Of a DNA stretch of 39,070 nucleotides, positions 1-39,070 are shown piece after piece; positions within the stretch are counted from its first letter, which is position 1; each line of letters starts with the position of its first letter. The position numbers and the translations under genes are program-made. The notes below the pieces were generated by a model. The model was given only the letters and a program-made list of their open reading frames with translations, did no database searches and was not told the origin of the DNA. The stretch lies in the NCBI GenBank assembly GCA_013115125.1, contig JABANN010000326.1, positions 1-39,070 of the forward strand. The letters run 5' to 3'. The stretch is from Perkinsus olseni. Its lineage: Eukaryota.

Positions 1-883
1 CCCCTCGTTGCCGCTATCGGCTCAGTTGCCCAACACAACACCCCTACTGATGTAAGAGACTCTAAAATGGCTAATGACCGGTGGGGGTCGAAAGACGTCG
101 ATTGGAAGAGCGTGCTGAGACCCACCGGTGGTTCCTCAGGATTACCCGCCGCCTGACGAAAACGCCAACTTCGACGCGAAGAACGACGCTGCCTACTGTA
201 GTTTTAATAACAAACGTATTGACGAGATAAGCCAATCAAAGCTGCTTCACATCGACGTTAACAGCAGCAGAATACATATGCGGAGAATCCATTGCCCCAA
301 GGGAGGGAAGCATGAAATCCTCCAGATAGGGTGAGGGGTTTCCTCCAGCAGTCCGCGTTACCCGACCTCTGCTTTTTGCAGTTTCTTCGATGAGAACGCT
401 CTCACCTGGTATTCCCGAGGTCACGACGTATTCCCAGACAGACGTATCTTCACTTTTGACGCCCTTCCCGGAAGCTTCCCACCCGAGAACACTGGTTTGG
501 ATCCGTTCAGGCACCTCAACGCCTCGACGCTTGCTGATGCTATCACCGAACTGTCCTCAGCCATCGTGAGGGCTTTGGGACGCACTAAACTGTATGAACA
601 CCCGAACTTGCGGGACAATACCGAAGCTGGACAATCTGCGAGAGGAAAACTCGCTCAGTTGTGTGCAGACGCGGTGACAATTATATCTCAGGAATTTGGT
701 AGTTTTGATGAATTGTGTGACTCGTCCCAAAAAGTCGGAGAGGGAACCCTTCATGCTGCTATAAACTCGGTGTGGCACTCTAGAGTAGAAAGAGCCAAGA
801 CACTCACCTTGACTAAATTAACGCCGCCACATAGACAGTTGGGGAAGATTATACCTCATGCTGTTCAACCGGTGAAGCATTAG
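1..883 (+). CDS. Secreted family A, copy 1 (apparently intact; 5' end lies outside the window); unknown function
   Basis: Exons <1-51 (PLVAAIGSVAQHNTPTD|gtaag), 140-330 (cag|DYPPPD...CPKGGKHEILQIG|gtgagg) and 382-883 (tttttgcag|FFDENALTWY...NTGLDPFRHL...EFGSFDELCD...AAINSVWHSR) join in frame. Intron positions and phases match the paralogue at 12910-13836. Confidence 0.75.
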
Positions 884-2445: not shown

Positions 2446-3206
2446 TGACGGTGCACGGCAGCTCGAATGGGGAATCTTCGTCTTCTCTCTACTCCCGGTA
2501 ATTCCAGTGCGGTATGCTGATGAAAGCATATCCCGCTCGCACCCGAAAGATTTGTTGATTGTGTGAAACGGCTGTCCCTTGATCATGTACAGTTAGACTA
2601 CTGCCTCGGCCATATCGGCTTCCATTTCCTCTGCTCTGCGCGGTATCGAGAAGTAGGTTGTGAAGGTAGTGGCGTATGATTCTCTGGGATTCTCTTTCTC
2701 CCATTCGCGTGCCTAACGCGAATTTTACATTGTAAAATGAGTTTTTCTATTTTACCAGTCGAACCTCATTTGTTAACAGTGTGAGGTTGCCATTAAAATA
2801 CCTAGTCCTTGAATTTTATCAGATTGAAACTGTCCTTAATGACGAGCAATACATGAATTAGTCATCACGTCTTCCTGCTCTAGGCTTCGACCGACTTCTT
2901 CTGCGTCTTCCTCCCTACCCGCGAACGCGTCAACGAGCGTTAGGGTGCTTAACAAAAATAGGAAGCGGCCCAAGGCGCTGCCTTGAGCCACCCCTCTTTC
3001 TATCGTTGTATTTTACCGTGGATACCGGATTTTCATGTTCCTGCTTCTGGGGCAATGGCAGTGTGGGAATCTGCGGGTCCGTATCAGCCCGGTTGTTCTA
3101 CAGCTGACAGCTGCCTCCAGGATCGTTAAATCCTGGGAACTCTCCGGAACCACCCGAACGGCCTGATAGATTGTTTGTCTCTTTTCTTTCCTTTCCCTTC
3201 ATTATT

Positions 3207-6070
3207 ATGGACCCGGCGGCCTACCCTACGGGCGTCACCGCGCCACAAAATTCGACCACTACGGTGCTCTCCCCTGAACAACATTGGTATATTCTAGCTG
3301 ACCATTTGGTCGGAGATGTCTCCCACTGGCTGGACGACCAAAACCAGATCGTACTGTCCATCGCTGTTTGCTTCATCGGGCTATGGATAATGGTCCTCGG
3401 AGAAAGTAATATCGGGTTTGTGAAATTTTTTTAGTAATATTTCGCTGAAAACGGCGGCTGAAGTCAATTCTGCTTTTTATGGTATGATTCCTAGTTGAAA
3501 AACGCTGCCAGGGCGATTCGATCCTGGGGCCTCTGAGGTCTCTACTGAATACTGGAATTTCAATTCGGTATGGTAGAAGAAATTAAGGAAAAAGTCGGGT
3601 ATTTTTTGGCCGCTAGTATTTCCTGGCGCGGCGGTAAGCGCTGTTAAAGAGTGGTAGTCATTTCTTCTTGCAGTAACGCTACAGTTGGCCTGGCTGGCGG
3701 TGGGCGCCCTGTCTGGATTTTATGTATGGTATCTTCCCGTCACCGAGTGGTACCTCCCAAGCTTGGCCACTCCCGAAGCGTTCCGGATAATAACGGCCGT
3801 TGTTTGCGGTGGCCTTGGCGGATGGATCGCATATTTGTTCAGACTGGGCGCTCTGTAATACGATGAGGGGAAGGGGCGGTATTATTCTCTCTGAAAGCGG
3901 TAGAATTGTCGTGAATTTTACTTTCTCATGAACAGTTTAGTTCGATTTACGGTGAAAAATATTGCGAAAAAATCTGCATATCTGCAAAAATTTAATTATT
4001 CCAGCCACTTCAGTTTTCTAAAGTGACAGACGCTGTGCTGCTCCCGAGTGGGTGCTCTTCATCGGTCTGAAGGAATTTTTCCAACCGACTGTTTTATAGC
4101 AATTCTCGTCCGCTCTTCAAAATGCCATAAAGGAGAAGCATCGTGTGAAACGGTTATAGCAAAGTCGAGGTATTTCATCTACTTTAGTTGTCTCTGTAGT
4201 CCTCGAGGGTATCGTCAACGTTAAGCTGCTCTTGAATGGGCGATTCTTATCAGCCTGAAAGTCGTCTCGCCGCTCCAGTTTGCCTGGCCGCTCAGGTGGT
4301 GATTTCGTTGAAAAAGAGTTTTTTTCCAATCCCGTCGTCCTGTATTCCCCTCTTTTCAAGCTTGGATTTGCAATAGGTTTTAGTATTATTTTTCGGTTTT
4401 TTTCGGATTTTTTTGGAGCGGGAACGACCGAAAATTTTGGTACCCCATTTCACTTGTATCATTGATCGTGTCGTTGAGACCTCCGGAAATTCGCGGTTTC
4501 GCTTGAACTGGCATATGGGATACCGTTTTCCCTCTTCTGTCTTGGTCTAGCCAAGCTCGGCATCTTCACCTGCGTCGCAACCACGTCTGCTGTAGCGAAA
4601 ATCGGCCGCCTCGAAATCGATCAATGACTTGTATGTTACTCGTAAAATGCGAGGTTGGGATGATGGCCTTCGGAGCGGGGGGAGAAATTTCCTTCGGAAT
4701 TTTCTGTGCCCGATCTGTAATTCAGTGTCCTCTTGCAATCTGAAAAAATCGTGGAATTCGCATCCCGGGAGCGGCTGCAGAGAGAAGTAAATGCGCCCTT
4801 CGGTGGGATACCGAGACGAATCTTAGGTTGAAGCTAGTCCTAGACGAAGAGAACCTCGAGTTGAGCCGTCACGCGTGGCTGTGAGATTTTTGAGCTCCTC
4901 CTGTCGCAAAGGCTGATCGTTGGCTAACGGATTATGGTTTGGTCCGTGCTTTGTCTTGATTAATTTCCATTTTCAGCATGTGGAATCGCGATTTTTTGGT
5001 AACTTTTTCGCCTGAATTTCGCCTTTCAAGAAATAATTTGTGCCGGGATCGAACCTGGGTGGTTAGGTGGTTGAAAAGTTACCTCCAGTATTTCAGGTTC
5101 ATCGTGAATCTTCTCTTCATCGCTCCGCTCACGTTCCTCATTCTTACAGCCTTCATCGACTTATCCCCCTCGCAAGATTGGCTTCAAGTGAGAATCTTTC
5201 TTACAAAATCGGCGGAGCGAAGCGAAAAATTTTTTGTGTTCAGATCCGCCTTGTATTGTCTCTCCTCTTTGGGACGATCGTGAGTGCAGGAGTAGTCAAG
5301 GGGCGGAAAATCGTACGTATTTTGTGGCGCGTGACGAATTTTGTGGCGCGTGACGGGTTGTGTCTACCTCAGGGCCTTCGTGTTATATGTGTACTGAGCG
5401 GCTCCTTTCTAGTAGCGACGACGGCGGGTTTCCTCGCGGAAGAAATTGAGGATACAAATTATGGTAAGAAAACTGGAATTTCGTGGAATTTCCCGGAATT
5501 TTCGGGAAAATTTTTGGAATTTTTTTGGCCGTCTGCCTCGAGTCCTCCTCGGCAAAGGAACAGGTTGCTAACGCCCGCTCATTTTTGAGAAATCTATTCC
5601 GAAAGCGGATTTTTCTTCCCGATTTTCAATGAGTTTCCCCTTTTTTCAGAGGATAGTCAACCTATTTTATGGCGCGGGTGCGTTGAGAGCTGCCTTGTGG
5701 ACGCCCCGGAAGTGCTGTCGAACCCGTCCGACGCTGATGTGAGCTGTTTGACGTTTTTTATGGTATGGACGGTGTTGGCGATATCAACGTAATATGCCGG
5801 GATCGAACCGGGGACCTTGTGATTACCGGCTTTTTGTTAGGTTGCTATTCCAGTTCATCACGCAAACGTCCATTTGTTGTGCGGCGAAAAATCGGGCAGA
5901 GCAACGCGTGCAAAACCCGACGACTCTATCAAGGCCGTTATTGAGTTCACGGTAATCGATCAAAATGGCGTAGCGAGATGTGCAAACGTCTACTATTTTG
6001 CAGGACACCCCAGCAGCGTCGAAGCTCCAAGCCGAAATGGGTACCTCAGTGTTGTGTGGAATTCTGGTAG
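3207..6070 (+). CDS. 7-TM membrane protein, DUF4203 / TM7S3-TMEM198-like
   Basis: Exons 3207-3405, 3674-3854, 5097-5187, 5244-5312, 5373-5463, 5650-5788, 5841-5951 and 6004-6070 join in frame via GT-AG introns. There are seven hydrophobic segments (IAVCFIGLWIMVLG; LAWLAVGALSGF; ITAVVCGGLGGW; FIVNLLFIAP; LVLSLLFGTIV; VICVLSGSFLV; FMVWTVLAISTLLFQ). Family call is by pattern only. The gene could instead stop at 5955. Confidence 0.65.
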
Positions 6071-7095
6071 TATACGGATATAACCGTTGTGATGAAATGG
6101 GTAAAAAATTCCGGTCCAAATCGTTCATACCGGATGCCCGACGAAATTGCGTACGAGCAAGGCTGCGTAGAGGATTCTCGTCGTCGTTGATGATGATCCG
6201 GTCGAACCTTCGGCCTGGCGAGATGCGCTCGTCTCAAAGATTTTCACTGCATATGGCGACTCGCCATTCTAGTATCAATAGGAGATGATTTCTGTGAGTT
6301 GTCGAATTTGATTGGGAGAAAATTAATTTTTCACGAGACGGTTCAATTGCTTCTAGCGTCGTCAAGAACCTCTTCCGCAATTTCTGGAACGAACAGTTTT
6401 GGGCGAAAAATTCCGAAAGTGTGAATTATTTTCCCATTAGGTATTCGCTACGTTTTTGCGGGCTTCGCGTTATTCCGACGTGCTTCTACACGATTTACTA
6501 CGCTTGCGGTGGATGCCTCCGAGTTTGCGCCTGTCTGGACTCAACGCGGACGAATATTGGGTAGTATCTTTCGGGAAGTGGAAAAATTGGTGGAAATTCT
6601 GGAATTTTCTGCGCTTTTTTCGTGGAAAATTAGATTTTTTTATTCTGCTCAAGAGTGGATTTTTCGCTGAAATTTCATGAAAAAAATTCGCCTCTAGCAT
6701 ATTTTTCCGGCGGCGTGTAACGCTGTGGTGAAACGGTTGATCGATTATTTTTGTTCAGATCCACCCAAAGATTGTCGAATTCAATTCCTCCGCCTGCGCC
6801 GCAAAATTCCCGTAATCGTAATAGTAATGCAGTTCCGAGCGCCCCGTCATTTGGCGAAGCGAAACCGTCGTATGATATTGAAGAAGGAAAGGAAAAGAAG
6901 AGTTAATTTATTTGTGCAATAGTATTGGTAATATTGCAGTAAAAATGACAGATGCCGGGATTGAACCGGACACCTCGAATAAGAGCGTTTCTTTTGATGA
7001 TTCTGTGGTGTTTTAAGTGCAGAGAAGAGAACCAGCACGGCGGAATTTTGTGGCGCGCGAAATATCATTTTTCAGTACCAATATCACTTTTTTAA

Positions 7096-8871
7096 ATGGC
7101 CGCATCAATTTGTTACCCAACATGTCTGGACTTGGCGGAAATGTTCTTTTCGCATCCGAGAGGATCATCAGCACGGACATCATCGGTAATAATAATCGAT
7201 CAGGTGATCGATTTGTGCAATCTGAAGGTTTTCCGCTGAAATTTCGCAAGATACTCCTTTTTTACGGATGGGGAAAATTGTTCGATAATTTTCCCCTCAA
7301 ATCTGAGACCCAGTAGGATAGGAAAATTCTGAAAGATTGCGATTCTCGGAAAAATTCGGCGAAAGCTCTGAGCTACCATTGATTCCGAAAAATTTAGGAT
7401 TTTTCGGGAAAATTTTCTCTGATTTTTCTTTTTCTTAGGATCGTTCCGTAATTTCCGCTCTACACAGTGCCGGCGGTCCGAGTGGCATCAGAATTTCGGG
7501 GTATCTTTATAAACAGTCAAAATTCATAAAAAGATTCCGGCGAAGATACTGTGTAAGAAAAAATGATCGATTTTGTTTCGCTCCGCTATCTTGTCGATAA
7601 TAGTGCCTGATTGGTGACAAGCTCTTCACGTTCAAGCGACCCGAAGATTTGGCGAGAGGATGGTATACTGAGGTAGGACTTGAGGAAATGCAAGATGAGC
7701 AAGATTTGTGATCAGGTGTTGGAGTTGGAGAGCGCCGATTATCTGGTTGAATGGGATGTTGTTCCTAACATTCATAATGTGAAACAAATTGAAGGAAAGT
7801 AGGAAGTCGCCAATCGTGCCGGTGATTAACCTGTTTTGTATCTTACCTGGTTCGACCTTAGATACGCCTTTGAAATTGGCACTGATGCCGAAACGCCGGC
7901 GCGGAGAGAGTGGATGTTCGCTGTTGATACTGATGTGGAGCGAAGAAGATGGGTTCACACCCTAGGGAGCTTCTGCAAGTAACCAAATCGATCGCGCGAT
8001 CGATCATAAACTTGACTAATTTCGCTTTCACGAATCTACTCGTCGGTATTAATAATAATTTTTCGATCTATTTTTTAAAAATTATTTTTACTCCTCATTT
8101 CCTCGATTTTCCAGACATTTTTGGGAAAAATTTTTTCCGCATAAAAATTTCCCAAAATTTTACATAAATGTTAATCATAGAATATTCTTTCAGGCAAGTA
8201 TGGCGACCGGATGAAACGGGTTTAGAAGGCCAGCTGAGAATCTTGAGGGTGAAGTCCACCAAAGATACGCCACAAAAAACGTATCTTATGCATAGTGATG
8301 GCAGAGCCCCGATAATAGGAGACGGCGATAACTGTAATATCGGAGAGGGAAAATTAGTCAAGATTTTTTTTTATTTCGGCCGATTTTTTGCCGAAATTTT
8401 CCTCTGTTTTTTGGTGCTTCTCCGGAGGAGTGTGAAGCCTAGCTACTTTTTTCTTTGGACCGTACTTTCTCGAGGGGAATCAGCTTTGCACGCATGCACA
8501 AGACGATCGGCGCTAAAGTATCACCAGTTCTCGACATTTTTTTCCTCAGCTGAAAACGGTTTCTCCCTGCCATCGCGTTCAACTGTGGCCAGCGAATCTT
8601 TGGATGAGCGCACAGCGAAGAATTGTCAAGATTCCACCGCCAACGATAAAATTATCGACCTCACTTGCCTAGCAGATCAGAACCATACTTGCAGTATATG
8701 CTTCAAAGATCTGGAGAACGAGAAAGTAAGTAGCGCGCGCCCTGGCGATCGATTTGTATTTTTCCTTCGCAGGTATGGGAGCTGACTTGTGGACATTATT
8801 TCTGTTTGGATTGTATCAAGGAATGGTCGAAGTTCAAGCGCACCTGCCCTGTATGCCGAGAAGTATTCTAA
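7096..8871 (+). CDS. PH-domain protein, probably joined to a C-terminal C3HC4 RING finger (putative E3 ligase)
   Basis: Spliced exons from 7439 to 7978 give ISGYLYKQSKFIKRFRRRYC|CLIGDKLFTFKRPED...|KYAFEIG...REWMFAVDTDVERRRWVHTL, a canonical PH pattern. Exons 8550-8725 and 8773-8871 give CSIC...CGHYFCLDC...CPVCREVF*. Exon 8194-8333 is phase-compatible with both. The start codon and the PH-RING fusion are inferred. Confidence 0.75.
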
Positions 8872-9251
8872 ATCGATCACCGGGGCGCGCGCTTTTCGCA
8901 TCGATTTCCAAGCGGGGTTGTTATTGGACGGGGGTCCATTTTCATTGTGTATTTTTTTATGATTGAAACTGTAGTATATGTGATTGGGTCCCGTCACTGC
9001 GCCACGAAATTGGACTCTATATTATCACTATTACTCTGATGAAAGTTGCATGGTTGGCAGATAATTTTGTGGCGCAGGCGGAGCGAAGCGATTCGTTTCC
9101 CCCTCATTTTTGGGAAGTGTTCAAAATTTCGACCCAAGCCGGTCGGCGGGTGGTCCGATCGATTAATTGGGATTTCGGAAGATACTCCGAGTTGAGTTGA
9201 AGTATCTTTGCAGGCGGAGCGAAGCGATTTTTCTTTTCCAGTTGTTTTACG

Positions 9252-10731
9252 ATGTCGTCATCACCTCCGAATAGAGGGGCCGATCAAGACGCGATCGATG
9301 AATCGATTTCGTCGTTGCGAATCAATTTGGATGTCATCAATGAGGCCATGCGGCAACCAGCCACCTCGGAGAGCGTCGATGTTGTTAGCAGTTTGATGTT
9401 AGAAGTAATAATGAGAGAATTTTTTGGCAAAAGACGGAATTTTCCACTGAATTTTTCGGACTTTCGACGGAAAATTTCCGGATTTCATTTAGTGGTGAAA
9501 ATGGCCATCAGGGGGCGTGAAGAATTCCTGAGAAAATTGTTCCTGAGAGATGACGTTATCGAAGAATTCAAAATTACTTGTTTCTTAGAAAAAATTTTTC
9601 CGGTCTGTAATACTATGTTGTATTGTGATACACATAATGGTCACAATGGTCATTACCCATGCGTGACTGTTGAACTTCTTTCGTAATTTTTGCCCGATTT
9701 TTTCCGTTTTAGGTTCAACAAACGAAAGATCAGCTTCAGGCGGAAGCGGAGCGTCTGGTCGAGGGCGGCCAATACGGCAGTACTGATAAAATTTTTGAAG
9801 CAATTTCTGAGGTAACTTTTCGGAGCCCGTATTTTTTTAATTTCCGCGTGACGGGAATCGGGAGCTGCAGCGGACGCCACCCGAAACCTGCTAGAAATTT
9901 TGTTTCCCAGGAATTGCGTAAATTGCGGATTTTTGGAGGAATTTTTCGGTGGACACGATGAAAATTTTCCACTTATTGGTGGAAGAAATGTGTGAAAGAA
10001 ACGAGAGGTATTTCGCTCCGCAGGTTTCTCACGTCGAGTCTGAGTTTGGGGAGTGGTCGAAGGCGGTTGAAGTCGCGTCCCGTCATCCCCAACCTCATCA
10101 TGGTGACACGGCAGAGAGTCCGGCCGTGGAGAACGCTGGTGGGGAAGGTCGTGGGGTCGATTCCGGCATATGGCGTTATTTTGACAGCAAATTCACCGGC
10201 GCCCGTGGTCGAGGAACCTGCGAAAAAAGAGACCTCGTCGCAGCGGAGCGGAGCAGCGCCGGAAGGGCAAACTGGCGAAGTAGGAACTCGGTAATTTCGT
10301 GGCGCGCGGGATAGTTTCCTTTGTTCAGGTCAATGCGCCACAAAGTTCCGGTGAAGCGAAGATTTCCGAGAAACCAAAAGATTCTGCCGGGGAAAATACT
10401 CAACAAGTTTTCTGGCCGGCCGCCGTAGCGACTCGCGGTAGAAGTCGTAGAGGAGCTCGTGGGGCTGCTAAGAGGGGTAAATCTCGGGATAGAAGGTAAT
10501 GAAAAGAGCGCGCGCCCTGGTGATCGATATGAACTTAGACATAAGGGCGGAAGAGACCAGGCCAAAGAGACTGGTGAAGCGGCTCCTGCGGTTTCCCAGC
10601 CAGAGGATCTTGGCTGGCCGACCGCGAAAATTGTAAGTTATTTCCGATGTTCTTCAAAGACAAAATTTACTTCAGACGACCAGTCCAGCAGCGAGTGCGC
10701 AAGAGGCCATAGCAGCGGTAAGGATAACTGA
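9252..10731 (+). CDS. Multi-exon hypothetical protein (helical N-terminus, low-complexity C-terminus)
   Basis: Coding-like blocks (MSSSPPNRGADQDAIDESISSLRINLD; VQQTKDQLQAEAERLVEGG; VSHVESEFGEWSKAVE; ANSPAPVVEEPAKKE) are separated by GT-AG A/T-tract introns. The exon chain is not fully resolved. Confidence 0.5.
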
Positions 10732-11035
10732 ACGCGCTCGCCCTGATGATCGATTTCGTTCAGTGGGACGCTTTTGCTGCACCTGATCTTGCGAACACTA
10801 CCTCTAAACCGGATGACATGAAGAATGATTCCGCAGCGAACCAGAGCCGGAAAGGAAGTAAGGCGACCAAAATCGATCATCCGATCGATTTCTTTCCCTT
10901 GGAGTAATTCCTTCACTTCCGTCTTCTCTTCGTTCTGTTCCTATTATATTCTGTCATGTATCCAGACTCTCGAACGAGGTAGTTGCTTCTTTTTTCGCAT
11001 CATCCGCAATTCTCAACGCGGCTTTCATTTAGCCG

Positions 11036-11678
11036 ATGCTCAGTGTTCGACTGAGTATGATGATTGACACTGGTACTCTCCAGCTGCGAAATATCGTAAA
11101 ATCGCGGAAAATTTGCGAAAAAAATCATCAATATATTTGCCAGGAGCCAAATATGTTTTTTCTCTCAGGTGTAGCGGTGTCATCGGCGTTGGGCGTGTGG
11201 GGTACGGACCAGCAAAAGAATATGACCGACTCACCACCGTCTCCTCCGACGTTGCCGATCCCGTCTAAACAGAATTCATCCAGCTCGGTTGATGCGCCTC
11301 CCAGCGTCCAGGCGGCGACACCGGTCGAAGAGGACAGACCCAAGCCTGGTGAGTTTGAGCTGAAAGGAAATCTTCGCCGTGCGGAAATCAAAGATACTCG
11401 ATCAGACGGGGTTGTGAACTCAGCGGCCCCTCCGGTTGTAACCTCGCCCGCATCATCGGCGTCGGGGAGAATGAAGATCTCGCTGAGCTGGGATGATGTT
11501 AAAGATATGTACGGCTCTGACAAAGAGAAGGCGAAGAAAGCGATACAAGACCAGTTTGTTCAGGTGGGTATCTTACAATCTTGCGACATCTTGAATTTCC
11601 TCAATTTTCTTTTAGGCAGTATCGTCGTCGCTTCACATAGATCCGTCAAGAGTTCGGGTTAAGAATGTTGCTGTATAG
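11036..11678 (+). CDS. Small Pro/Ser-rich protein with a compact C-terminal domain; possible signal peptide
   Basis: Exons 11036-11072, 11169-11348, 11406-11563 and 11616-11678 join in frame, ending KISLSWDDVKDMYGSDKEKAKKAIQDQFVQ|AVSSSLHIDPSRVRVKNVAV*. Confidence 0.55.
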
Positions 11679-12094
11679 TTGTACGCTGTTGTTGTCATTA
11701 CTGTTACTAATCGATTTCAAGACAGTGTGACCGTTTCAATCATTTACTCGTTGAAAACGAGGAAATGTCGAGTTTGACATAAACTGAAGTTTCGAGAGAT
11801 GACAGTATGATCACGAGGTAACCGGCGGAAAGTAATCGCGTAACCTTCGAACACTCTTTCGGTAGCCGACAATTTGTAAGACGCCGAGAGAGAGGGAAGG
11901 CATCGGGGGAGGTAATCGATAACTCCACTGAGAAAAACGATGTTTTCACAACATTTATTAACTCAACACCTTCCAAGCTGCACACAACAACAACATTAAC
12001 TACATCATTCATCAAAATCGTTAATACGGAAAAGAACTCGATGACATACAGTGATGTATTATTGATAATAAGAAGACGAGTACTGTTCCTCTCC

Positions 12095-12662: not shown

Positions 12663-12909
12663 GTTTGCAGCCCTGCGGCTCGTTTCACGTAGGAAGCGAC
12701 AGCCCAGCTTCTCAACTACCCTCATGTCTCTGAAGCCACAGGCCTCACCTCAGCTCAACTCATGTAAACGCAATAATTCAGTGCTCGCTCATAACAACAT
12801 TAGCATCAGCATCATTTTCTGTGGATTCTTTCAGCCAGCGTTAATAAGATAACCATGGGACAAATTGATAAATAGCGATGAATTCATGGAAAAGCCGGGG
12901 AAGTCCCCC

Positions 12910-13836
12910 TCATCTCCTTCGGGGGAATATCTCGACAGTCTGACGGTCGATATCCCTGAACTCCCATTCTTGACTTTCAGCCGCGTCAACGGCACCTTGG
13001 GTCTCGTTGTAGAACCGAGCGCATAGGGCAACGTAACTCGGATAATTTTTCTTAACAACCCTCACAGCCGAGCACGTTCCCCTGAGTTTCTCGATTGCAG
13101 ATCGCCTAGCTTTCGTCTGGGGAGCCTCTTTTTCGTCTTCATGAAGAACAGTGGTAGATCCTATCTTTCTCACGGCCGAGTATAGCCTATCAATTTCACT
13201 GCGTAAGTCGAGGGGTTCAACTCCCTGAGCGGAACCCGGCCAGTGTTATTGGGAGTGCGTCCGCCGATAAAATTGTGTAGAAGCTGGCCGGGAGTCCGAC
13301 CATCACCGCTGTTATACCACTCCAGACCAGAGATGGCCCCGTATCTTTGACATGACAGGAAATGAGAATAATGATACCTCTTCCTCTTACTTCGCTGCGA
13401 ATGTGACCTGGTTGCCGGCCTCTGGGCAGCGAACCCATGCTGTTTGAAGCCTTGACTTCACGATGCGTATCTCGATACCCCTCTCCACAGGCCCAGCGCC
13501 TCCCCAAAACGTCCGATATGTGACGGAAGTGACGAAGTTTCCCCCGAGAGAGATGCCTGACCCGCCATCTTGTGGAGGGTAGCCCTGAGAACGGTCACCA
13601 ACAGGGATGAGGGCCGGAACTACAACAGCAAGCGAATCGCGGAATCTAACATATGCATTAAACCCCCACCGGTGGATAACAGACATTAGTCATTTTAGGG
13701 TCTCTAAGAGACTGTCTCTTACATCAGTAGGGGTGTTGTGTTGGGCCACTGAGCCGATAGCGGTAACGAGGGGTGAGTTGGAGAGTAATGCAGCAGCAGC
13801 TGACACTCCGATGATGATGAACTGTTTTGGGGACAT
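12910..13836 (-). pseudogene. Family A, copy 3: complete three-exon gene with a 1-nt frameshift
   Basis: Exon 1 13836-13723 encodes MSPKQFIIIGVSAAAALLSNSPLVTAIGSVAQHNTPTD (signal-peptide-like). Exon 2 spans 13584-13391 and exon 3 runs from ~13344. The frame breaks near 13203 (act tac gc agt gaa att) and resumes in ORF 12910-13173. Confidence 0.75.
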
Positions 13837-19954: not shown

Positions 19955-21331
19955 TCAACCATTGATGAGATCATGCAGCAAGCCAGTCAGACAAAGAGGG
20001 AAGAAAGCAAGACTCACAATGAGGAGCACCAAAGCCCCATGCCACTCGAGGGACTGATTCCGCAGCTTCTTGAGAAGGCTCACCTTCTCACCTGGCTCCT
20101 TGATCTTTACATCGGAGACATCGTGCAGACCTCCCACTTCATCTTTGTTGGGCTGCTCGACTGCGCCCTGTACTGGGGTATAGCAGATGTTGAGGTAGAC
20201 GAAACAGGGGATAACGAAGGCTAGGAAGTTGGTGCCGATGATACCAATGAATTGGATGGTAGCACCGAGGTCCTCGAAAATGATGGCCAACACCGTACAG
20301 ATGACCAGAAAGGCCACAGTCGTCCCGATGTGGAGCTTGAGAGTATCTTGTAGGCGAGGGAAGAAGTAGGTGATGACACTCGAGATTGATTGCCTAGCTG
20401 GTAGGAGCAACAAGGGGAAGGCCGTGAGGACGGCGAATGGTAAAACTATATAGCCGATATGAATAGCGATGTTGGAGACCGGCAAGTTGAGGTAGAAGTT
20501 GGACTCGATCGTATGTCCGAAGGCGTAGTACGGTCCTACCATGACCGCAAGGTAAATGACAAAAACGAAGGCGATGGCTAGCAACGAGGCGATGTCCAGT
20601 TTCTTCATGCTCCGATTGACCATATCTTCGGCAACCAGAGGCATCGCGAAATGGCAGGAATAACCGAAAATGAAGATTGGGACCACCGACAGGATTGACC
20701 ATATGCTAGACGTTGGGGGTATACCCACATACCGCTCCCCGAGCTGCTCGTCCACACTGAAGCAGTAGATAACGGCGGCTAGGATAGCATAGAGGAAACA
20801 GCTGAGGCCGATGATATTGGTAATCGCGGTGTTGGTGATTTGCTTGAGGAAGCAGACCGGCAGGAGAAGGACGACGATCAGGCCGATAAGACCAACTCTA
20901 ATCAAGAACCTGTTCCCTTCAGTAGAGCCGGGGGACCAATTTTCGAGGAGGGCCAAACCAAGGCTAGCAAAGACCTGTAGGTAGGCGGTATCAATACCCG
21001 CATTATGGATGAACATGATGAAATCGATGAAAAGGGGCATCCTCGGGTATCCAGCAGCCACAGCGAAGGTGCTGTAACTCAGCCTCTTGCCGGGCATCTT
21101 CATGGCACATCTGCTGATCAGATGAAGCGAAAAGTAAGACAACACGGCAAATACGAGCAGAAGGACGATACCCAATGACCAACCGCAGACGGCTTTTGCT
21201 CTGGCATAACTGAGCATGCCGGCACCGATGATACAGTTGGTCAGGCAGGTCCATGCCGTAAGGATATTCCCTTTAGGGATAACCGGAGCAGAGTTGAAGT
21301 CCGCCAGACGATTGTCTTTCTCGGCTGACAT
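19955..21331 (-). CDS. Amino acid transporter, AAAP / Aa_trans family, intronless
   Basis: 458-aa ORF with ~11 hydrophobic segments and the family motifs NCIIGAGMLSY and IFIFGYSCHFAMPLV. Confidence 0.93.
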   Translation of the reverse strand: MSAEKDNRLADFNSAPVIPKGNILTAWTCLTNCIIGAGMLSYARAKAVCGWSLGIVLLLVFAVLSYFSLHLISRCAMKMPGKRLSYSTFAVAAGYPRMPLFIDFIMFIHNAGIDTAYLQVFASLGLALLENWSPGSTEGNRFLIRVGLIGLIVVLLLPVCFLKQITNTAITNIIGLSCFLYAILAAVIYCFSVDEQLGERYVGIPPTSSIWSILSVVPIFIFGYSCHFAMPLVAEDMVNRSMKKLDIASLLAIAFVFVIYLAVMVGPYYAFGHTIESNFYLNLPVSNIAIHIGYIVLPFAVLTAFPLLLLPARQSISSVITYFFPRLQDTLKLHIGTTVAFLVICTVLAIIFEDLGATIQFIGIIGTNFLAFVIPCFVYLNICYTPVQGAVEQPNKDEVGGLHDVSDVKIKEPGEKVSLLKKLRNQSLEWHGALVLLIVSLAFFPLCLTGLLHDLING

Positions 21332-23230
21332 GTTTGGTATTTACAAAGCGTCTGGTTTAAACTTACAAGCGCAAGCTTTCAAGGAATCGCATGCGTGCTA
21401 CTTGCACGCGTGCGCATCGCGCACGCGCACTGCGCAACGGGCAACATCGAAGGTTGTCTGCGTGATTTCGACTCTGTGGTCCTCTCGAAAAGTGCACAGC
21501 ACGTTTAAGGAGAGCGAACGCCGCCTGGGAGCACAAACCGATTAACTCTGTACAAGAGAGAGCCAGGGCTACCCTCATCGCTGTGTCGCTGTGACGGCTT
21601 TGCTGCCGCGGGCGAGCGCGAAAAGCATCTACCAGTATGCTGAGCGTATTTTCAAAGTGTCGGCCGTCTTCTTTAGAGAATCATAGGCTTACCCTTCTCC
21701 CATCAGCATCATGGTTACTAACAGATCCCAGATGACGTGACTTTACACTCGGAAAGCTCCCGCTGCAAGATTTGCCTGAAACTTGAAATCTTGCAATACT
21801 TGTAACGCTGGTGGCACGCATGAGCATATGAAGGAGTCTCAATGTTGGCCCAAAATGATTCAGACGTCTTTGGAACAGTAACTGTAGGTGTTAGGGGAGT
21901 CGTAGGAGCACTATATCTAGCAGGACCAGTCCGCGATAGGCCGGGAAGAGCCAGCACATGAAAAGGAGCAACTACGAGAGTAGCTAACTCGTAAAGATCG
22001 ATCAACTTCATATGTGTACGCATACACATTGGCGCGCTGAACCTGGACAGCTCTACTAACAACTCTAACAGTAGGCAACTACTGGGATTCATATGCGATG
22101 ATTTCCTGCGGGGTCACAATAACCAACTATTAGCCAACACTGCAATAGGAGAGTTGCACGCGTGCACATCGCCGGCAAACCCCGGGTGCTGTGAGGCTCG
22201 CAGTCCACGTGGGGCATCCGATGATTCGATTCTCGAGTAACTGATCACGCAGCGTCCGTACAGGTAGCTCACGAAGATGGGGAGCGGCATGGGTGTTCTG
22301 GCGGGTCGATGCGACAAAGCCTGCTCTCTGCTCGATGGTCTCACTCATTTTTATTATCCTAAACCAGGGTGACTGCCACTTTCAGCGTTTATGAAGGTTA
22401 ACTTGCTCCGACCACGTCCCACCTGCCGTGACCCAGATGGATATTTAAGGGCACTAGAAAACGATTGGCAACTGAGCTCACAAACCAGAAGTCGGGGGGC
22501 CGCGCGGTTCTGAGAGATGTACTCCCACGATCAACGAGCCTTTTACGTGCTGAGGCCAGCCTCGGGCTGTCGGCGCGCCCGACAAACCAAGAACAAATCC
22601 TGAGGCTGGTTCTCGACCGCCGCCGAAACCACAGCCGTGTCACAGTTAGAGCGGCTATACTCGTGCTTGTGACCGATGACACTGTATGTACACGATGCAA
22701 GCCTCGGTATCATTGAACTCAAACTCGAGGCAATGTGAACTGACGAGAGCGGGGAAATATTAGGAAACCGGACTGACAGAAGCTGCCAACGAGACCCCGG
22801 TTAGGGACAGATAACAGATAAACTGAGGACACAGCTTGGCGTTCCTAAATCCCGAGTCCAAATCGGAATGCCATATGGTCTCCATAGTCAGCGGCGGAGC
22901 TGCGGGTATATCTTAATCGGCTGCCAGCAGGAGCCGCGCTGGTCTGTTGCTTAGCCTTTCCGCTTCCATAGCAAATCGACAATAAATACAAGGTAAGGCG
23001 ATAAAAATACGATTTAGGATCATCATGACGATGATGAGGTCACAAGGCCCTATTTGATCAGGCTTCGCCTCGCCGGGTAGGCTGCGTGACGAACAGTGAA
23101 GATTGGTCGTAACACTGACACAGAATCAGCCTGGCAAGCGAAAAGCCTGAAATGTGCCCTTTACGGGCAAACTCCCAGCACGAGTGATGAAGCTCGAAGA
23201 ATATTAATATCAAGTCCGAGTGAAGCCATC

Positions 23231-24045
23231 CTAGTCCGCAGTGAGCTTGATCCTTGGTTTGGATTTGTCGTTGGGGACGAAGTACACCGCGTTTTCCGCA
23301 GAGTTGAAGACGAACTCTGCACTGATTTTGAGGAAGTCCGAGGTGAGACCGATGAGAGGGTTGCTGAACTTGAAGATCTCACCGGCGGCCTCCTTCTGGA
23401 GCGCGTACTCACTATCACCTGTGACATATTCAAATGAGCATTCGGAGGCGTCCCAGAGTGTGGCGCCTGCCCAGCTGGTCGACAATCCCGGAGTAGCAGA
23501 GAATTCGATAGCGTTGCCATCAGGACCCGGGACCGCCGAATATTTCCCCAGTGGCGGTGGCCCGTCGGTCACAGTAGATGCCAACTCCCTTGATGCGGTC
23601 GGTCGTGGCTGGACACATTTTGCGGTCGTCGATCCAGGCGGCGCTGTGCAATCTCGGTGAGATTGTAAGAATAAAGCGCTTTCTTAGCAACCATCTGAAC
23701 GACGCCAGGGCTCGAAGGTGACCATCGCAGGTCGAAGCCAACGTCAAAGTAGGGGAACAAGTCAGGACCTTCAGTGCGCCAGTGACGTTTCAGAATGATC
23801 TTGTCGCCCTCGAACGTGACGTCATTATACCTCAGACTGTATCCGTGTATGCCGAAGTAGTTACACACTAGTTGAGCACTTCTGTAGCGGTCAACTTGGA
23901 AATACATACAGGTGTAAATCTCGTAAGAAGGGTCGTGGTTTCTTCTCACGAACTGGTACGCGCAGTACTTCCCGGGTTGAAGCGAGGGGCAACCGTTCGT
24001 GAGTACAGCGAGCAAGCAACCAACCACGAATGAGATGGGGACCAT
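23231..24045 (-). pseudogene. Secreted family B, copy 1 (1-nt deletion near 23655)
   Basis: Signal peptide MVPISFVVGCLLAVLTNG and motif TEGPDLFPYFDVGFDL. 'acc ga gat tgc' lacks one base; restoring it gives TxDCTAPPG and joins ORF 23231-23584 (GEIFKF...AEFVFNSAENAVYFVPN). Confidence 0.8.
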
Positions 24046-26059
24046 TCAATGGGACAGAGTCGAAACTACTGAGAGGCTTCCTCATCGCGAGAGAGTCTTT
24101 CCGTTGAGCTTGCAAATAGAGGTCGATTCCTCGATGAACATGTCTGACGACATCAGAGCGTCTTTGGATCATAACACGGCAACGATGAAACCGATCATGT
24201 CACCGAGAGACAGATGGCTGTCTAATGATTACTGTAGACTTCGCCGCAAGACTAGAAGAGTCCTCGTCTGGAACGACTCAATCGAAGTAATACGAGAAAC
24301 CTCGTATCGATGTGAACGGCATTGCACATTCTCCGTGCGTATCAAGCTCCCAAATACCAGAAATCGCCACGTGACTGCGTGGAATTGGGAGACAGTCCGG
24401 CAACTACACCATCAAATATCTTCGTTGATCACATCTATTTCGCATACACGGGAAGCCTCACGATGGGCGATCGAGCCATCAATGGACAGGCATCGATGTC
24501 GACCGGCGACCTTCGACTTATCTTCATCGCAGCATTCTAGCACCACAGCCCTGCGCCGCGTCAGTAAGCCGCGCTAGCAGAACGAGTAAGAGCGCCATCA
24601 CTGGACTATGTTGGAAGGAGTCTCGCACCGGCGCTGAATACTCCATTAAAATGAGAAAGACTCGCCTGTTTCATCTTCTCCATTGTCGAGTGTTGCGTCC
24701 CAAAAGGACGCAAATGACGGAGCCCCGACAATTGTGTAGATTGTCTCTTTTTCCCCCACTCTGATGTGTTCGGGTCATTCTGTGGGTGACTTAAGTATCC
24801 TAACGCTAGTACGCTAGCTGTGGATTCAATCATTAATCATTAAGTAAAGCTGTGATTACGCATTACATTGGTGGTTATCATCTACCACCTACGTCGTTAT
24901 ATATTGCGGTAGAGATTGGGTATTCCCTATCATAGTGGTTATTGATATCGTTATTACTATAAGTCTGGATCAGTGTTTTCAGTTGTTAATCTGGAAGACC
25001 GTGGAATATATTAACGAAAGGGTTCACAGAAGGCGATCAACACGAGTATTCCGGGACGAGTATCAAGTCACCGCCGGTGACTTGATACTTGCTCTCGTTT
25101 TCAGGATCGCTCAGACTCCCTGGCGCTTGGCGCGGATGCCTTTATTAGGGACCCATTCCACATCATGATAATTTTCCTCGGCTTGAGTGTTTCGCAGTCC
25201 GAAATTCGGAGCCCGTTGTGATGACTGCCTCCTCAGTACACTGCCCAAACATTGGGTCAAGTTACAGTTACTTTCAGCGCCCTTATGATATTGCTATCTC
25301 TAACGAGACGTTATGTCGAAGCTCATCTCAATTAGAGTACAGTCCGGCGAGATCGGACGAGTAACGGTTGAATGAAGGCGGCCGTACTGGATGACCTCCA
25401 GTGGAGGCTATGATCGATGACCTTGTTTGTATTCGAGAAATTCTCAAAAGCATTCTCGACGAGAATGCCTTTGACGGGAAACATTCTTGCAATAGTACCA
25501 AGCTCTAACTCAATGCAGTGTAGTGAGCCGTTGAAAGCGTAATGACGAGAAGAGAGCGGACTAGCAAAGCGGCCGACGAGGTCCTCAACACAAACCTAGA
25601 CACGCAAGTGCTCAGAAGGAGATTACAGGTAGACTGAGCAGATGCCGTCTGCCAGGCGACTTTGTGTTCTTAGGAGTACGGATCCGACAAAATGAATGGC
25701 GTGTCTACAGCGACACCGGCATGGACCCTCAGCAGGACTCTCGCAAATCTTTTGGTCAATCTTCTCTCCTTTATTCCATACAAAGGCAGCAACGACAATG
25801 AATGATGAAATACAAGGTACATTAATAACTATCCCACTCGGGATCATATCGACGATAATGAGGTGACAAGACCAGACAGGATCAGGCTCTAAACTGCTCG
25901 CTAGGCTGAGTCATAACTGTTGGAGATTCATCACAATACATCAATACTGTCACAGCCTAGCAAGCGAGAAGCCAAAAAACTCGTCTCTATGTGCGTGGAC
26001 TTCCTTCCACATCCACTATGAAGCACAAAAAGTATTACCATCATAAAACTTAAGCTGTC

Positions 26060-26873
26060 TTATTCCAGAGTCAACTTGATCCTCGGGTTCGATTTGTTGT
26101 TGGGGACGAAGTACACCGCGTTTTGGGCGGAGTAGTAGACGAACTCCGCATCGATTTTGAAGAACTGGAACGTGAGCTGAGTGAAGTTGGTCTCAAACCG
26201 GAAGATCTCACCGGAGGCCTTCTTGTCAAGCGTGTAATCATATTCACCTGTTATGTAATCCAAGGTAGTTGCGAAGGCGTCCCAAAGGAAGGCGATTCCC
26301 CGGCTACCCGGATCAACATAGAACCGGATAGCGTTTCCATTAGGACCCGGAACCGCCGAGTATTCTCCCTTCGTCTCCCTTCGGCTGCTTTTCGTCGGTC
26401 ACAACGTCTCTCAACTGTCTCGATGCAGCCCCACGCGGCTCAGCACACCTTGCTGTGTATGATCTAGGTGGCCGCCGACAATCCTTGGTGAGAGTGAAAT
26501 TGTATAGCCCTTTCCTGGCAACCATGTGAACGACATCGGGGCTTGCGGGGGAAGTGAGGAGGTCGAAGCCAACTTCAAAATAGGGGTACAACTCAGGACC
26601 TTCAGTCAGCCCTTGACGTCTCAAAATGATCTTGTCGTCCTCGAACGTGACATTATCATAAGTGAGAATGTAACCGCTTCCGCCAAAGTAGTTGTACACC
26701 AGCTTGGTCTTCCTCTCGGAGTAGTAATGAAAGTACATACACGCGTAAGTATCATAGGATGGGTCGTGATTCCTCCTCACGAACTGGTACGCGCAGTACG
26801 CCGCGGGTTCAAGGGAGAGGCCACCACCAGTGAGCACAGCCACCAAGCCAGCCACGAATGAGATGGGAGTCAT
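26060..26873 (-). pseudogene. Family B, copy 2 (10-bp tandem duplication causes a frameshift)
   Basis: tctcccttcg is duplicated at 26364-26383. Removing one unit gives a single ORF through KGEYSAVPGPNGNAIRF...AFLWDAFATTLDYITGEY to 26060. Confidence 0.8.
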
Positions 26874-38230: not shown

Positions 38231-39070
38231 TCACTGTTGTAAAGGTGCGTCGATATGAGGCAGGGACTTGTTGTTCGGTACGAAGGACACCACGTTCCTC
38301 GTCGAGTCGTAGACGAACTCTGCGGGAATTTTGACGAACTGTGACGTGACCTTGACGTAGGGGTTGTTGAACTTGAAGATTTCACCGGAGCTTCCCTCCT
38401 CTAGCTTGTACCCTGAATAACCAGACTGGTACTGAAAAGAACTGGGACGTTTCGTGGCATCGTAGAGGTAGGTGTACCCATAGTTGGTTGATGAGTCAGC
38501 GCGGACGCTGACAGTATTGAAGTTCGGACCAAACACTTGATAATGACCATTCGGCTGCCTTCCTTCAGACGCAGAAGAACGTAGCTGCCTTCCTCTAGGT
38601 GCAGAAGAACGTAGCTGCCTTCAACTTCTGGAGAAAGGCACAGTGCAATCGGCCACCGTTCCCGGTGGTGGGGTGCATCCTCGAGTGAGAGTATAAGCGT
38701 ACGTTCCATCCTTAGCAACCATCTCAACGACATCAGGTGTATCGGATGTCACCTTAAGGTCGAAGCCGACGTCAAAGTAGGGGTATACCTCAGGACCTTC
38801 GATATGACCATAACGTTTCAAGATGATCTTATCATCCTCGAACGTAACATTGTCATATCGCATGGCGAAAAAGTGCGCAGTGAACAAGGTATACACAAAT
38901 TCAGCACTCGACTCGGACTTGTAGTCAAAAAACATACATCCCGCGATGTCATCTCTTTGAGGTATTTCCTTCCAGACCGGGAACGCACAGTACCTTCCTG
39001 GTTCGAGAGATAGGCCACCACTGGCAAGAACAGCAATAGAGACGATCACGAATGAGATGGATGATAACAT
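38231..39070 (-). pseudogene. Family B, copy 4 (single in-frame TGA at 38621-38623)
   Basis: ORFs 38621-39070 and 38231-38536 share a frame: FSRS*RQLRSSAPRGRQLRSSASEGRQPNGHYQVFGP. The TGA sits where the neighbouring 30-bp repeat units have GGA. Confidence 0.8.

What the first reader, a model, noticed from the sequence alone, without database searches (positions are those of the whole stretch)
3400..11680. Gene island whose introns carry ~10-bp phased A/T tracts (PATC-like)
Seen: non-coding DNA here is built from periodic An/Tn clusters, e.g. 5476-5530 ggaatttcgt ggaatttccc ggaattttcg ggaaaatttt tggaattttt. Similar stretches are at 6571-6690, 7321-7440, 8070-8165, 9415-9490 and 9890-9970. Introns outside the island (family A, cathepsin) lack this. 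The island holds ordinary-looking co-oriented genes among pseudogenes and transposons. Established: periodic An/Tn clusters in Caenorhabditis protect genes from silencing in repeat-rich chromatin. Inference: a convergent DNA-bending or nucleosome code in an alveolate lineage.
Basis: partly seen in the sequence, partly recalled or inferred. Interest (0 to 1): 0.75.

Follow-up and report, generated by a model that had tools for sequence, protein, structure and literature searches.

The report
Phased A/T blocks in Perkinsus introns
The long introns of three neighbouring, expressed genes of the shellfish parasite Perkinsus are padded with short A-then-T blocks spaced about 11 bases apart, a real pattern that resembles, but does not match, the 10-base anti-silencing DNA of nematodes, and whose function is unproven.

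Summary
AA/TT in 3400-11680 is periodic above shuffled controls (z 8.5). The period is 11.1-11.2 bp (bootstrap 95% range 10.9-11.9), not 10. It keeps register for only 3-4 repeats.

RNA contigs of two runs show three co-oriented, spliced genes; two of them carry what looks like a spliced-leader tail. The signal sits in their 11 long introns (186-1242 nt). It is absent from their 14 short introns and their exons. It is almost absent from the other ~30 kb: 46 of 296 against 6 of 3017 80-bp windows.

The unit is a G/C-clamped A-run-then-T-run, roughly GGAAAATTTTCG. The introns share only a ~20-nt core, not a transposon body. The DNA is native Perkinsus and correctly assembled.

Best reading (0.5): intron filler made locally by slippage of 10-12-nt units plus a regional, strand-biased mutation pattern. 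It probably gives stiff, nucleosome-unfriendly DNA as a by-product.

A selected, PATC-like mechanical signal remains possible (about 0.2). PATC membership fails on the 10-bp register and the long-range coherence. No whole genome was available, so generality is untested.

The parts
3177..6987 (+). Gene 1: a multi-pass membrane protein of about 403 aa. Long introns are 3406-3673, 3855-5096, 5464-5649, 6067-6440 and 6561-6758. Short introns are 5188-5243, 5313-5372, 5789-5840 and 5952-6003.
   Evidence: RNA contig record 9 (X12) and the joints support the model. The introns inside 5244-6066 are inferred from the contig length and an open frame. All 26 solutions contain an intron over about 5483-5649. 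Loose letters before 3177 fit the tail of a spliced leader.
7074..9148 (+). Gene 2: a PH-like plus RING-finger protein of 290 aa. Long introns are 7186-7438, 7979-8193 and 8334-8549. Short introns are 7553-7603, 7673-7715, 7799-7861 and 8726-8772.
   Evidence: All 7 introns appear as GT..AG joints in X7 and X12. The spliced frame is open. A Perkinsus olseni protein, P0012, carries RING Pfam families and matches the exons from 7604 onward at 75-100% per tblastn piece.
9252..11677 (+). Gene 3 coding region: a low-complexity protein of about 425 aa. Long introns are 9405-9712, 9812-10023 and 10858-11168. There are six short introns of 38-57 nt.
   Evidence: Joints 9404/9713, 11347/11405 and 11561/11614 are listed. 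The other introns are inferred from GT..AG sites that give one open frame.
4375..4445 (.). Phased tract inside the 1242-nt intron. It includes a 10-bp tandem array at 4389-4417.
   Evidence: TRF gives period 10, 2.9 copies, 89% matches. Power peaks at 11.2 bp, p 0.010. The whole intron gives z 7.5 at 11.0 bp.
5473..5530 (.). Phased tract that is also an outright tandem repeat with a GGAATTTYSK unit.
   Evidence: TRF gives period 10, 5 copies, 73% matches. Letter identity at lag 10 is 63%. Shuffle p is 0.026.
6571..6690 (.). The strongest phased tract. It is periodic in A/T versus G/C composition only.
   Evidence: Power is 5.04 at 11.0 bp, with 0 of 1000 shuffles reaching it. The intron gives z 11.9. 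Letter identity at lags 10-12 is only 0.31-0.33.
7321..7440 (.). Phased tract at the 3' end of intron 7186-7438.
   Evidence: Best period is 9.9 bp, p 0.059. At exactly 10.0 bp p is 0.011.
8070..8165 (.). Phased tract in intron 7979-8193.
   Evidence: Best period is 11.9 bp, p 0.009.
8340..8412 (.). Weaker tract at the 5' end of intron 8334-8549.
   Evidence: Best period is 11.5 bp, p 0.077.
9415..9490 (.). Phased tract at the 5' end of intron 9405-9712.
   Evidence: Best period is 10.6 bp, p 0.008.
9890..9970 (.). Phased tract in the inferred intron 9812-10023.
   Evidence: Best period is 10.9 bp, p 0.071.
11085..11135 (.). Short tract in the inferred intron 10858-11168.
   Evidence: Best period is 10.2 bp, p 0.011.

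Best explanation
The 11 long introns of three adjacent, co-oriented, expressed Perkinsus genes (two with a spliced-leader-like tail) are padded with low-complexity DNA. It consists of G/C-clamped A-run-then-T-run blocks (about GGAAAATTTTCG) that recur every 10-12 bp, mean 11.1.

It is not a transposon family and not a conserved sequence. It is a pattern of alternating A/T and G/C stretches.

It most likely arises and grows in place. Replication slippage or duplication of 10-12-nt units lengthens the introns. A regional, strand-biased mutation pattern then keeps making AA/TT runs and CpG-rich spacers while removing TpA.

The inferred physical consequence is a string of rigid A-tracts out of register with nucleosomal DNA, which would disfavour nucleosomes and give a coiled rather than planar bend. 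I take this to be a by-product, not a demonstrated function.

Shown: the pattern, its period, its place in introns, expression and splicing, the lack of homology between tracts, and the regional dinucleotide signature. Inferred: the slippage and mutation-bias origin, and the effect on chromatin.
For: - Two tracts are outright tandem arrays of 10-11-bp units (63% and 49% letter identity at lag 10).
- Contigs of a 2-5% diverged strain (X11) that cover tract-bearing introns differ in length by 11 letters (5304-5979) and 22 letters (7159-7452), which are multiples of the unit (table 8).
- Periods vary from 9.75 to 12 bp between introns, as expected for independent local arrays.
- blastn between the 10 long introns compared (10858-11168 was left out) finds only matches of 68 nt or less at 65-94% identity. 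An alignment of six tracts shares only a core of about 20 nt.
- DNA depth in tract-only bins equals the single-copy level, about 213-228 against 203. So this is not a repeat family at 85% identity or more.
- No 16-18-bp or 35-bp component is present.
- The whole block, including exons and short introns, has a distinct dinucleotide signature: AA/TT 1.18-1.42, CG 1.15-1.52, TA 0.55-0.74. Elsewhere the values are 0.91-1.09, 0.79-1.06 and 0.62-0.84. This points to a regional mutation regime.
- T exceeds A on the sense strand in 11 of 11 long introns, and G exceeds C in 8 of 11. That is the usual signature of transcription-linked asymmetry.
Against: - A/T-versus-G/C periodicity is about twice what residual letter identity predicts. 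In a simple neutral-decay simulation at matched identity excess, the class-identity excess is 0.031 against 0.062 observed. Plain decay of old tandem repeats is therefore not enough. A bias, or selection acting at the A/T-versus-G/C level, is needed.
- Other AT-rich non-coding DNA in the window lacks the pattern. A-then-T to T-then-A counts are 83:12 inside and 39:43 outside. A genome-wide mutational tendency alone would not explain that.
- The same ~20-nt core recurs in six different introns.
- TRF calls only 2 of the 9 tracts tandem repeats.
- The positions of the 11- and 22-letter length differences in strain X11 were not listed, so their link to the tracts is inferred.
- Only one window could be studied.
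Confidence: 0.5

Rival explanations
1. A selected DNA-mechanical signal analogous to nematode PATCs. Arrays of A-then-T blocks in the long introns would keep the gene bodies nucleosome-poor or topologically responsive. That would protect a constitutively transcribed gene cluster from silencing spreading in from neighbouring repeats.
For: - The sequence style and context are PATC-like: A/T clusters in unusually long introns of expressed genes.
- High-copy repeats lie next to and inside the block (depth 37x at 2734-3100 and 17x at 8239-8605). hAT debris lies at 31187-31525.
- The periodicity is held at the A/T-versus-G/C level, beyond what letter identity explains.
- It is locus-specific compared with other AT-rich DNA.
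- A-then-T blocks outnumber T-then-A blocks 94:16 in 3001-10000. From recalled classic work (Hagerman), A-then-T is the bent arrangement.
- In PATC genes, introns lengthen together with the signal (PMC4947018, section 14).
Against: - The period is 11.1 bp, and 10.5 bp or less in at most 2.4% of bootstraps.
- Register is lost after 3-4 repeats.
- Only 15.5% of 80-bp intron windows pass power 1.5, against 58.6% in a PATC-like metagenome contig measured the same way.
- One long intron (6067-6440) has no signal, p 0.745.
- The odd dinucleotide signature also covers the exons, which fits mutation better than selection on introns.
- There are no chromatin, bending or silencing data.
Confidence: 0.2
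2. Decayed remains of a small mobile element, or of a transposon-borne minisatellite, that hopped locally into the introns of these three neighbouring genes and has since eroded to a ~20-nt core plus A/T-rich debris.
For: - A ~20-nt core (about GGAWTTTTCGGGAAAATTT) occurs once in each of six introns.
- A second dispersed motif, AATTTYGTGGCGCG, is also confined to the block: 13 of 14 hits against 3.1 expected window-wide. One copy is shared with 16-19 other genomic contigs.
- Contigs from elsewhere in the genome join pieces of these motifs with A/T-block letters in between (table 5c).
- Nematode PATCs derive from Helitron minisatellites (preprint 10.64898/2026.08.08.743475, section 5).
Against: - There is no extended homology between the introns.
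- No terminal repeats or target duplications were seen around the tracts.
- Depth in tract-only bins is single-copy.
- There is no longer-period unit.
- Single-centre palindromes, which earlier notes on this genome read as hAT scars, are under-represented in the block: 13 of 100.
Confidence: 0.12
3. Arrays of protein-binding sites, that is, intronic regulatory modules. Candidates are heat-shock-element-like inverted GAA/TTC units or another factor that reads TTTTCSGGAAAA.
For: - Three perfect three-unit GAAnnTTCnnGAA sites occur in the window, all inside the tracts (5496, 6597, 6669). The chance expectation is 0.75; 5 of 100 shuffles reach 3.
- The conserved ~20-nt core is a near-palindrome.
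Against: - Any G-clamped A-then-T block produces GAAnnTTC by construction.
- Enrichment is marginal.
- The core sits at no fixed distance from the splice sites (coordinates).
- The three genes have unrelated products.
- The presence of a matching factor in Perkinsus was not tested.
Confidence: 0.07
4. An RNA-level role. The self-complementary A/U blocks would fold the long intron RNA and bring the splice sites together, in an organism whose introns are normally about 50 nt.
For: Sense-strand folding energies are below the shuffle mean for 7 of 7 long introns tested, with z from -0.7 to -2.6.
Against: - The z-scores are weak. Only 3 of 7 fall below -2.
- The antisense strands score nearly as low. 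That is what a strand-symmetric DNA pattern gives.
- No Rfam family matches.
Confidence: 0.05

Closest known systems
PATCs (periodic An/Tn clusters) of Caenorhabditis (PMC4947018; preprint 10.64898/2026.08.08.743475)
   Same: Both are clusters of short A or T runs separated by G/C-richer spacers. Both sit in non-coding DNA, mainly in unusually long introns of expressed genes, with repeats nearby. In both the A/T versus G/C pattern matters more than the exact letters.
   Different: - The period here is 11.1 bp, not 10.
- Register holds for 3-4 repeats and tracts are 50-120 bp, not up to 1 kb.
- The blocks are mostly A-run directly followed by T-run.
- There is no trace of a 35-bp or 16-18-bp precursor.
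- The host is an alveolate. Table S4 of PMC4947018 covers protists but has no Perkinsus.
- Function is untested.
About 11-bp A/T periodicity of bacterial genomes (PMC4132750, abstract only, from a search listing)
   Same: It has the same off-helical period of about 11 bp. That period is commonly read as matching underwound (negatively supercoiled) DNA.
   Different: The bacterial signal is weak and genome-wide, largely in coding DNA. Here it is local, strong and confined to the introns of a eukaryote with nucleosomes.
Degenerate micro- or minisatellites (slippage-derived low-complexity DNA)
   Same: The units are 10-12 nt. Two tracts are scored as tandem repeats by TRF. Length differences between strains are multiples of 11.
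   Different: Most tracts keep the A/T versus G/C rhythm without letter identity. The same unit type recurs in 9-10 separate introns of one block and nowhere else in 30 kb.
Synthetic curved DNA of the (A4T4N2)n type (Hagerman; recalled, no call)
   Same: The unit is a G/C-clamped A-run followed by a T-run. This is the arrangement that bends, unlike T-run followed by A-run.
   Different: The natural tracts here are irregular and spaced about 11 rather than 10 bp apart. Curvature was not measured or modelled here.

Membership tests
PATC (periodic An/Tn clusters) | Clusters of 3-5 adjacent A or T in non-coding DNA | tested here: met
   Long introns hold 85 A-runs and 131 T-runs of 3 or more in 3783 nt. 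A/T tracts of 4 or more peak at a centre spacing of 10-12 bp.
PATC (periodic An/Tn clusters) | Register of 10 bp (one helical turn) | tested here: not met
   The peak is at 11.1-11.2 bp, bootstrap 95% range 10.9-11.9. It falls at 10.5 bp or below in 0-2.4% of bootstraps. At exactly 10.0 bp, 2 of 6 named tracts reach p<0.05.
PATC (periodic An/Tn clusters) | Register kept over an extended region (hundreds of bp up to 1 kb) | tested here: not met
   The autocorrelation fades after lags 31-34. Tracts are 50-120 bp. 15.5% of 80-bp intron windows exceed power 1.5, against 58.6% in contig L080.
PATC (periodic An/Tn clusters) | Lies in introns of expressed genes, with lengthened introns | tested here: met
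   Spliced RNA contigs appear in two runs. There are 11 introns of 186-1242 nt beside 14 of 38-63 nt.
PATC (periodic An/Tn clusters) | Protects from silencing in repressive chromatin | not testable with these tools
   No chromatin or reporter data were available.
PATC (periodic An/Tn clusters) | Descent from a Helitron 35-bp minisatellite through a 16-18-bp stage | tested here: not met
   Letter identity at lags 3-80 exceeds block shuffles only at lags 10-12. No Helitron protein domain is among the Pfam hits in the window.
Tandem repeat / minisatellite | Head-to-tail copies with letter identity at the unit lag | tested here: inconclusive
   2 of 9 tracts are called by TRF at score 30 or more. 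The others have 0.23-0.45 identity at lags 10-12.
Mobile element family (MITE-like, introner-like) | Alignable copies with defined ends; more than one copy in the genome | tested here: not met
   blastn between the introns gives matches of 68 nt or less. Only a ~20-nt core aligns. Depth in tract-only bins is single-copy.
Heat-shock element arrays | Three or more alternating nGAAn units | tested here: inconclusive
   There are 3 perfect sites against 0.75 expected; 5 of 100 shuffles reach 3. The presence of the factor was not tested.

The most novel reading that the evidence does not exclude
Perkinsus marks constitutively transcribed, trans-spliced gene clusters embedded in repeat-rich DNA with off-helical (about 11-bp) arrays of bent A-then-T blocks in expanded introns. 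This would be a sequence-encoded chromatin or supercoiling signal that arose independently of nematode PATCs. It would be tuned to underwound, transcribed DNA rather than to the nucleosomal 10-bp repeat.
Probability: 0.15. Interest if true: 0.75.

Novelty: new variant of a known kind. Interest (0 to 1): 0.4.

Why it matters
If the pattern turns out to be genome-wide and tied to expression or chromatin state, it would be the first PATC-like sequence-encoded signal outside animals. It would also be a natural test of whether DNA mechanics alone can insulate genes.

It would have a different period, 11 rather than 10 bp, which would bear on whether such signals act through nucleosomes or through supercoiling.

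If it is only slippage-made filler, it still shows how introns grow from about 50 nt to several hundred in a genome where earlier notes of this scan describe several other ways of building introns.

Tried and rejected
- **Whole genome.** None is held for this window, so no genome-wide scan was possible.
- **Earlier notes of this scan.** Look-ups by place, by words and by two sequences gave nothing on this pattern.
- **Spliced-leader or Sm-site origin of the AATTTYGTGGCGCG motif.** Passages of PMC3101222 place the Perkinsus Sm-like site inside the leader exon and give it a different sequence. Dropped.
- **snRNA, tRNA or other RNA genes.** Rfam gave only two sub-threshold chance hits and ARAGORN found none.
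- **hAT excision scars as the source of the blocks.** Single-centre palindromes are rarer in the block than outside, 13 of 100. Not supported for these tracts.
- **A longer hidden repeat unit (22, 33 or 35 bp).** None found.
- **An 11-bp signal in the exons.** None found; the band maximum sits at the edge, 12.5 bp, power 0.19.
- **Metagenome scan with the 19-nt core.** It returned 86 single hits, mostly unrelated DNA and none recognisably Perkinsus.
- **Literature.** Searches found nothing on Perkinsus intron periodicity. Table S4 of PMC4947018 has no Perkinsus. Some supplements of that paper could not be read because of size. The supplements of the preprint are closed and may hold a wider species survey.
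- **Parts of the stretch without RNA cover** are not used as evidence.


Full report
**Source and integrity**

The window is nuclear DNA of a Perkinsus species. An intronless amino-acid transporter ORF (19958-21340, minus strand) is 87% identical to a P. olseni protein and 78-82% identical to P. marinus and P. chesapeaki proteins.

A DNA contig of 6901 nt from a run of another study covers 2885-9785 without a single difference. Shorter contigs continue to 12976. The left junction of the 'island' is therefore bridged and the block is not a misassembly.

An RNA contig ends at 3177 with loose letters that fit the tail of the Perkinsus spliced leader. A second ends at 7074 with only six such letters directly behind sequencing-adapter letters, which is weaker. 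PMC3101222 (passages) describes the TCTT variant of that leader; the rest of the leader sequence is recalled. The genes are native.

**Gene structure**

Two RNA-type runs, X7 (RNA by guess) and X12 (RNA on record), show 14 GT..AG joints. Neither DNA run shows any of them. Together with contig lengths and open frames they give three plus-strand genes:
- G1, 3177-6987: a multi-pass membrane protein.
- G2, 7074-9148: a PH-like plus RING protein of 290 aa. A P. olseni protein with RING Pfam families matches its exons from 7604 onward at 75-100% per tblastn piece.
- G3, coding 9252-11677: a low-complexity protein.

Ten of the 25 introns are inferred rather than seen as listed joints, because the joint table was cut. 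Intron lengths are bimodal: 14 of 38-63 nt and 11 of 186-1242 nt. G1 ends 86 nt before the trans-splice acceptor of G2.

**The observation**

- AA/TT autocorrelation in 3400-11680 has peaks at lags 11-12, 22-23 and 31-34. It is nearly flat in the other 30.8 kb.
- Local spectral power peaks at 11.25 bp, z 8.5 against 100 dinucleotide shuffles. At 10.0 bp z is 3.3.
- Per kilobase, 56 of 280 100-bp windows in 3001-10000 exceed power 1.0, against 20 of about 1279 elsewhere.
- On one common scale, 46 of 296 80-bp windows of the long introns exceed 1.5, against 6 of 3017 outside the block.
- The spliced coding sequence has no peak near 11 bp.
- Shuffling within each long intron, six of ten tested are significant at p<0.05: 3855-5096, 6561-6758 and 7979-8193 strongly, 7186-7438 and 9812-10023 at p 0.04. 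Intron 6067-6440 has no signal, and 10858-11168 was not tested whole. Note that one search counts 3406-3673, 5464-5649, 8334-8549 and 9405-9712 as not significant at 0.05, so the count of clearly significant introns is five of ten, with 9405-9712 at p 0.055.

**Period and coherence**

The period is 11.1-11.2 bp by three different indicators. The bootstrap 95% range is 10.9-11.9, and it falls at 10.5 bp or below in 0-2.4% of bootstraps. Single tracts range from 9.9 to 11.9 bp. Register fades after three to four repeats. So the pattern is real, but it is an 11-bp, short-range quasi-periodicity.

**Anatomy of the unit**

- The blocks are an A-run directly followed by a T-run, clamped by G/C. In 3001-10000, A-then-T outnumbers T-then-A by 94 to 16.
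- In AT-rich segments the counts are 83:12 inside the block and 39:43 outside (odds ratio 7.6). AT-richness alone therefore does not explain the pattern.
- Eight-letter words such as GGAAAATT (8 against 3), GGAATTTT (7 against 2) and ATTTTTCG (6 against 0) are tens of times enriched in 3.8 kb of long introns. The comparison is both strands of 30 kb outside.
- T exceeds A on the sense strand in all 11 long introns.

**What it is not**

- Not a transposon family. blastn between the 10 long introns compared (10858-11168 was left out) gives only matches of 68 nt or less. Six tracts share only a ~20-nt core. DNA depth in tract-only bins is at the single-copy level.
- Not a decayed longer minisatellite.
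- Not an RNA gene.
- RNA folding is only weakly better than shuffles, and nearly as much so on the antisense strand.
- Heat-shock-element-like sites are marginally enriched: 3 against 0.75 expected, with 5 of 100 shuffles reaching 3. They follow from the unit itself.
- Palindromes with a one-letter centre, which earlier notes on this genome read as hAT excision scars, are under-represented in the block at 13 of 100.

**Origin**

For slippage:
- Two tracts are true tandem arrays of 10-11-bp units.
- Contigs of a diverged strain that cover tract-bearing introns differ by 11 and 22 letters. The positions of those differences were not listed.

Against simple decay of old arrays:
- In the six tracts that TRF does not call, A/T-versus-G/C identity at lags 10-12 exceeds shuffles by 0.062, while letter identity exceeds them by 0.053.
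- A crude neutral-decay simulation gives about 0.031 at that identity level.

Something therefore maintains the A/T-versus-G/C rhythm itself. The whole block, exons and short introns included, has raised AA/TT and CpG and lowered TpA compared with every other part of the window, including a bona fide gene. This fits a regional mutation regime in a strongly transcribed unit. Selection on DNA mechanics cannot be excluded.

**Comparison with PATCs**

PATCs are defined by A/T clusters in 10-bp register over long stretches. They lie in the long introns of germline-expressed genes in repressive chromatin, they protect transgenes from silencing, and they derive from Helitron 35-bp minisatellites remodelled by transcription-coupled mutation. 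My sources are PMC4947018 (summary, section 14, legends, Table S4 searched) and preprint 10.64898/2026.08.08.743475 (abstract, sections 5 and 13, passages).

Here the cluster type and the intronic, expressed context are met. The 10-bp register, the long coherence and the Helitron precursor are tested and not met. Function cannot be tested.

A metagenome contig found by chance, L080, shows what a strong signal looks like on the same scale: power 1.15 at 10.7 bp, with 58.6% of windows above 1.5. The Perkinsus introns reach 0.55 and 15.5%.

Table S4 of PMC4947018 lists protists but no Perkinsus. My literature searches found nothing on this pattern in Perkinsus.

**Verdict**

This is a real, locus-specific, roughly 11-bp A-then-T quasi-periodicity confined to the long introns of three expressed neighbours. 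It is most likely self-generated intron filler shaped by slippage and regional mutation bias. It resembles PATCs but is not a member of that class.

Its generality and any function need the whole genome and chromatin data, neither of which was available here. The scan's earlier notes on this genome describe other kinds of intron-building repeats, but not this pattern.

Noticed in passing
window 3239-10345 (for example 5320-5331, 5339-5350, 7046-7057, 9065-9076, 10295-10306; minus strand 3239-3250, 8998-9009, 10334-10345): The motif AATTTYGTGGCGCG, often followed by GTGACGGG, has 14 hits at 2 mismatches or fewer, 13 of them inside the gene block (3.1 expected window-wide). It occurs on either strand, in introns and in exons. 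One copy lies 17-30 nt before the trans-splice acceptor of G2. It starts two short introns right after GTA. The copy at 8992-9011 is shared with 16-19 other genomic contigs. Its meaning is unknown, and a link to the spliced leader was not supported.
   Followed up: partly
window 5040-5063, 5794-5817, 6952-6975 (also 3509-3540): There are pieces that resemble a tRNA T-arm in reverse orientation. One makes up most of the inferred 52-nt intron 5789-5840 (family D5). This agrees with earlier notes on tRNA-derived introns in this genome. ARAGORN finds no whole tRNA.
   Followed up: partly
window 8726-8772, 10496-10538, 10718-10763; inverted copy 8870-8901: Three short introns in two genes share a core, GCGCGCCCTGGYGATCGAT. 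An inverted copy lies in the 3' end of G2 (D9, I2, I3). This looks like an introner-type element.
   Followed up: no
window 9012-9211: A 200-bp stretch between G2 and G3 is replaced by six letters in some contigs of three runs, DNA runs included. It is a presence/absence variant. It is bounded by the GTGGCGC motif and by a 20-nt direct repeat (9074-9093 and 9210-9229, D7).
   Followed up: no
window 3177 and 7074: RNA contigs end here with loose letters that fit the tail of a spliced leader. Only 86 nt separate the end of G1 from the acceptor of G2. The three genes may form one transcription unit.
   Followed up: partly
window 1-60 / 13714-13773 and 1500-2336 / 12767-13593: Inverted paralogous segments (96.7% and 73% identity) flank the gene block. 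Further copies of a gene family lie at 22984-24052, 25808-26880, 28688-29247 and 38264-39057.
   Followed up: no
whole window: Palindromes with a single-letter centre and arms of 5 or more number 100. Those with no centre number 53. Most lie outside the block. This fits earlier notes on odd-length palindromes in this genome.
   Followed up: no
window 2734-3100 and 8463-8513: These are high-copy dispersed repeats. Summed DNA depth is 37x and 17x the single-copy level, and many contigs break there. The second lies inside intron 8334-8549.
   Followed up: no
L080 1-1595 (metagenome contig): This contig comes from an unknown organism and is almost wholly made of GGAAAATTTTCCG-type blocks. It has 50 A-then-T against 5 T-then-A blocks and an AA/TT period of 10.7 bp with z about 29. 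The word CAGCCG recurs, in one part every ~141-146 bp. It is a far stronger PATC-like sequence than the Perkinsus tracts.
   Followed up: partly
window 278-604 versus protein P0012: The public P. olseni protein P0012 joins an N-terminus resembling window 278-604 (73% identity) to the G2 exons from 7604 onward. This is either a merged gene model or a different arrangement in that assembly.
   Followed up: no
window 8334-8549: This 216-nt intron is open in frame with its flanking exons (ORF 8168-8782). Intron retention would therefore add 72 residues rather than stop translation.
   Followed up: no
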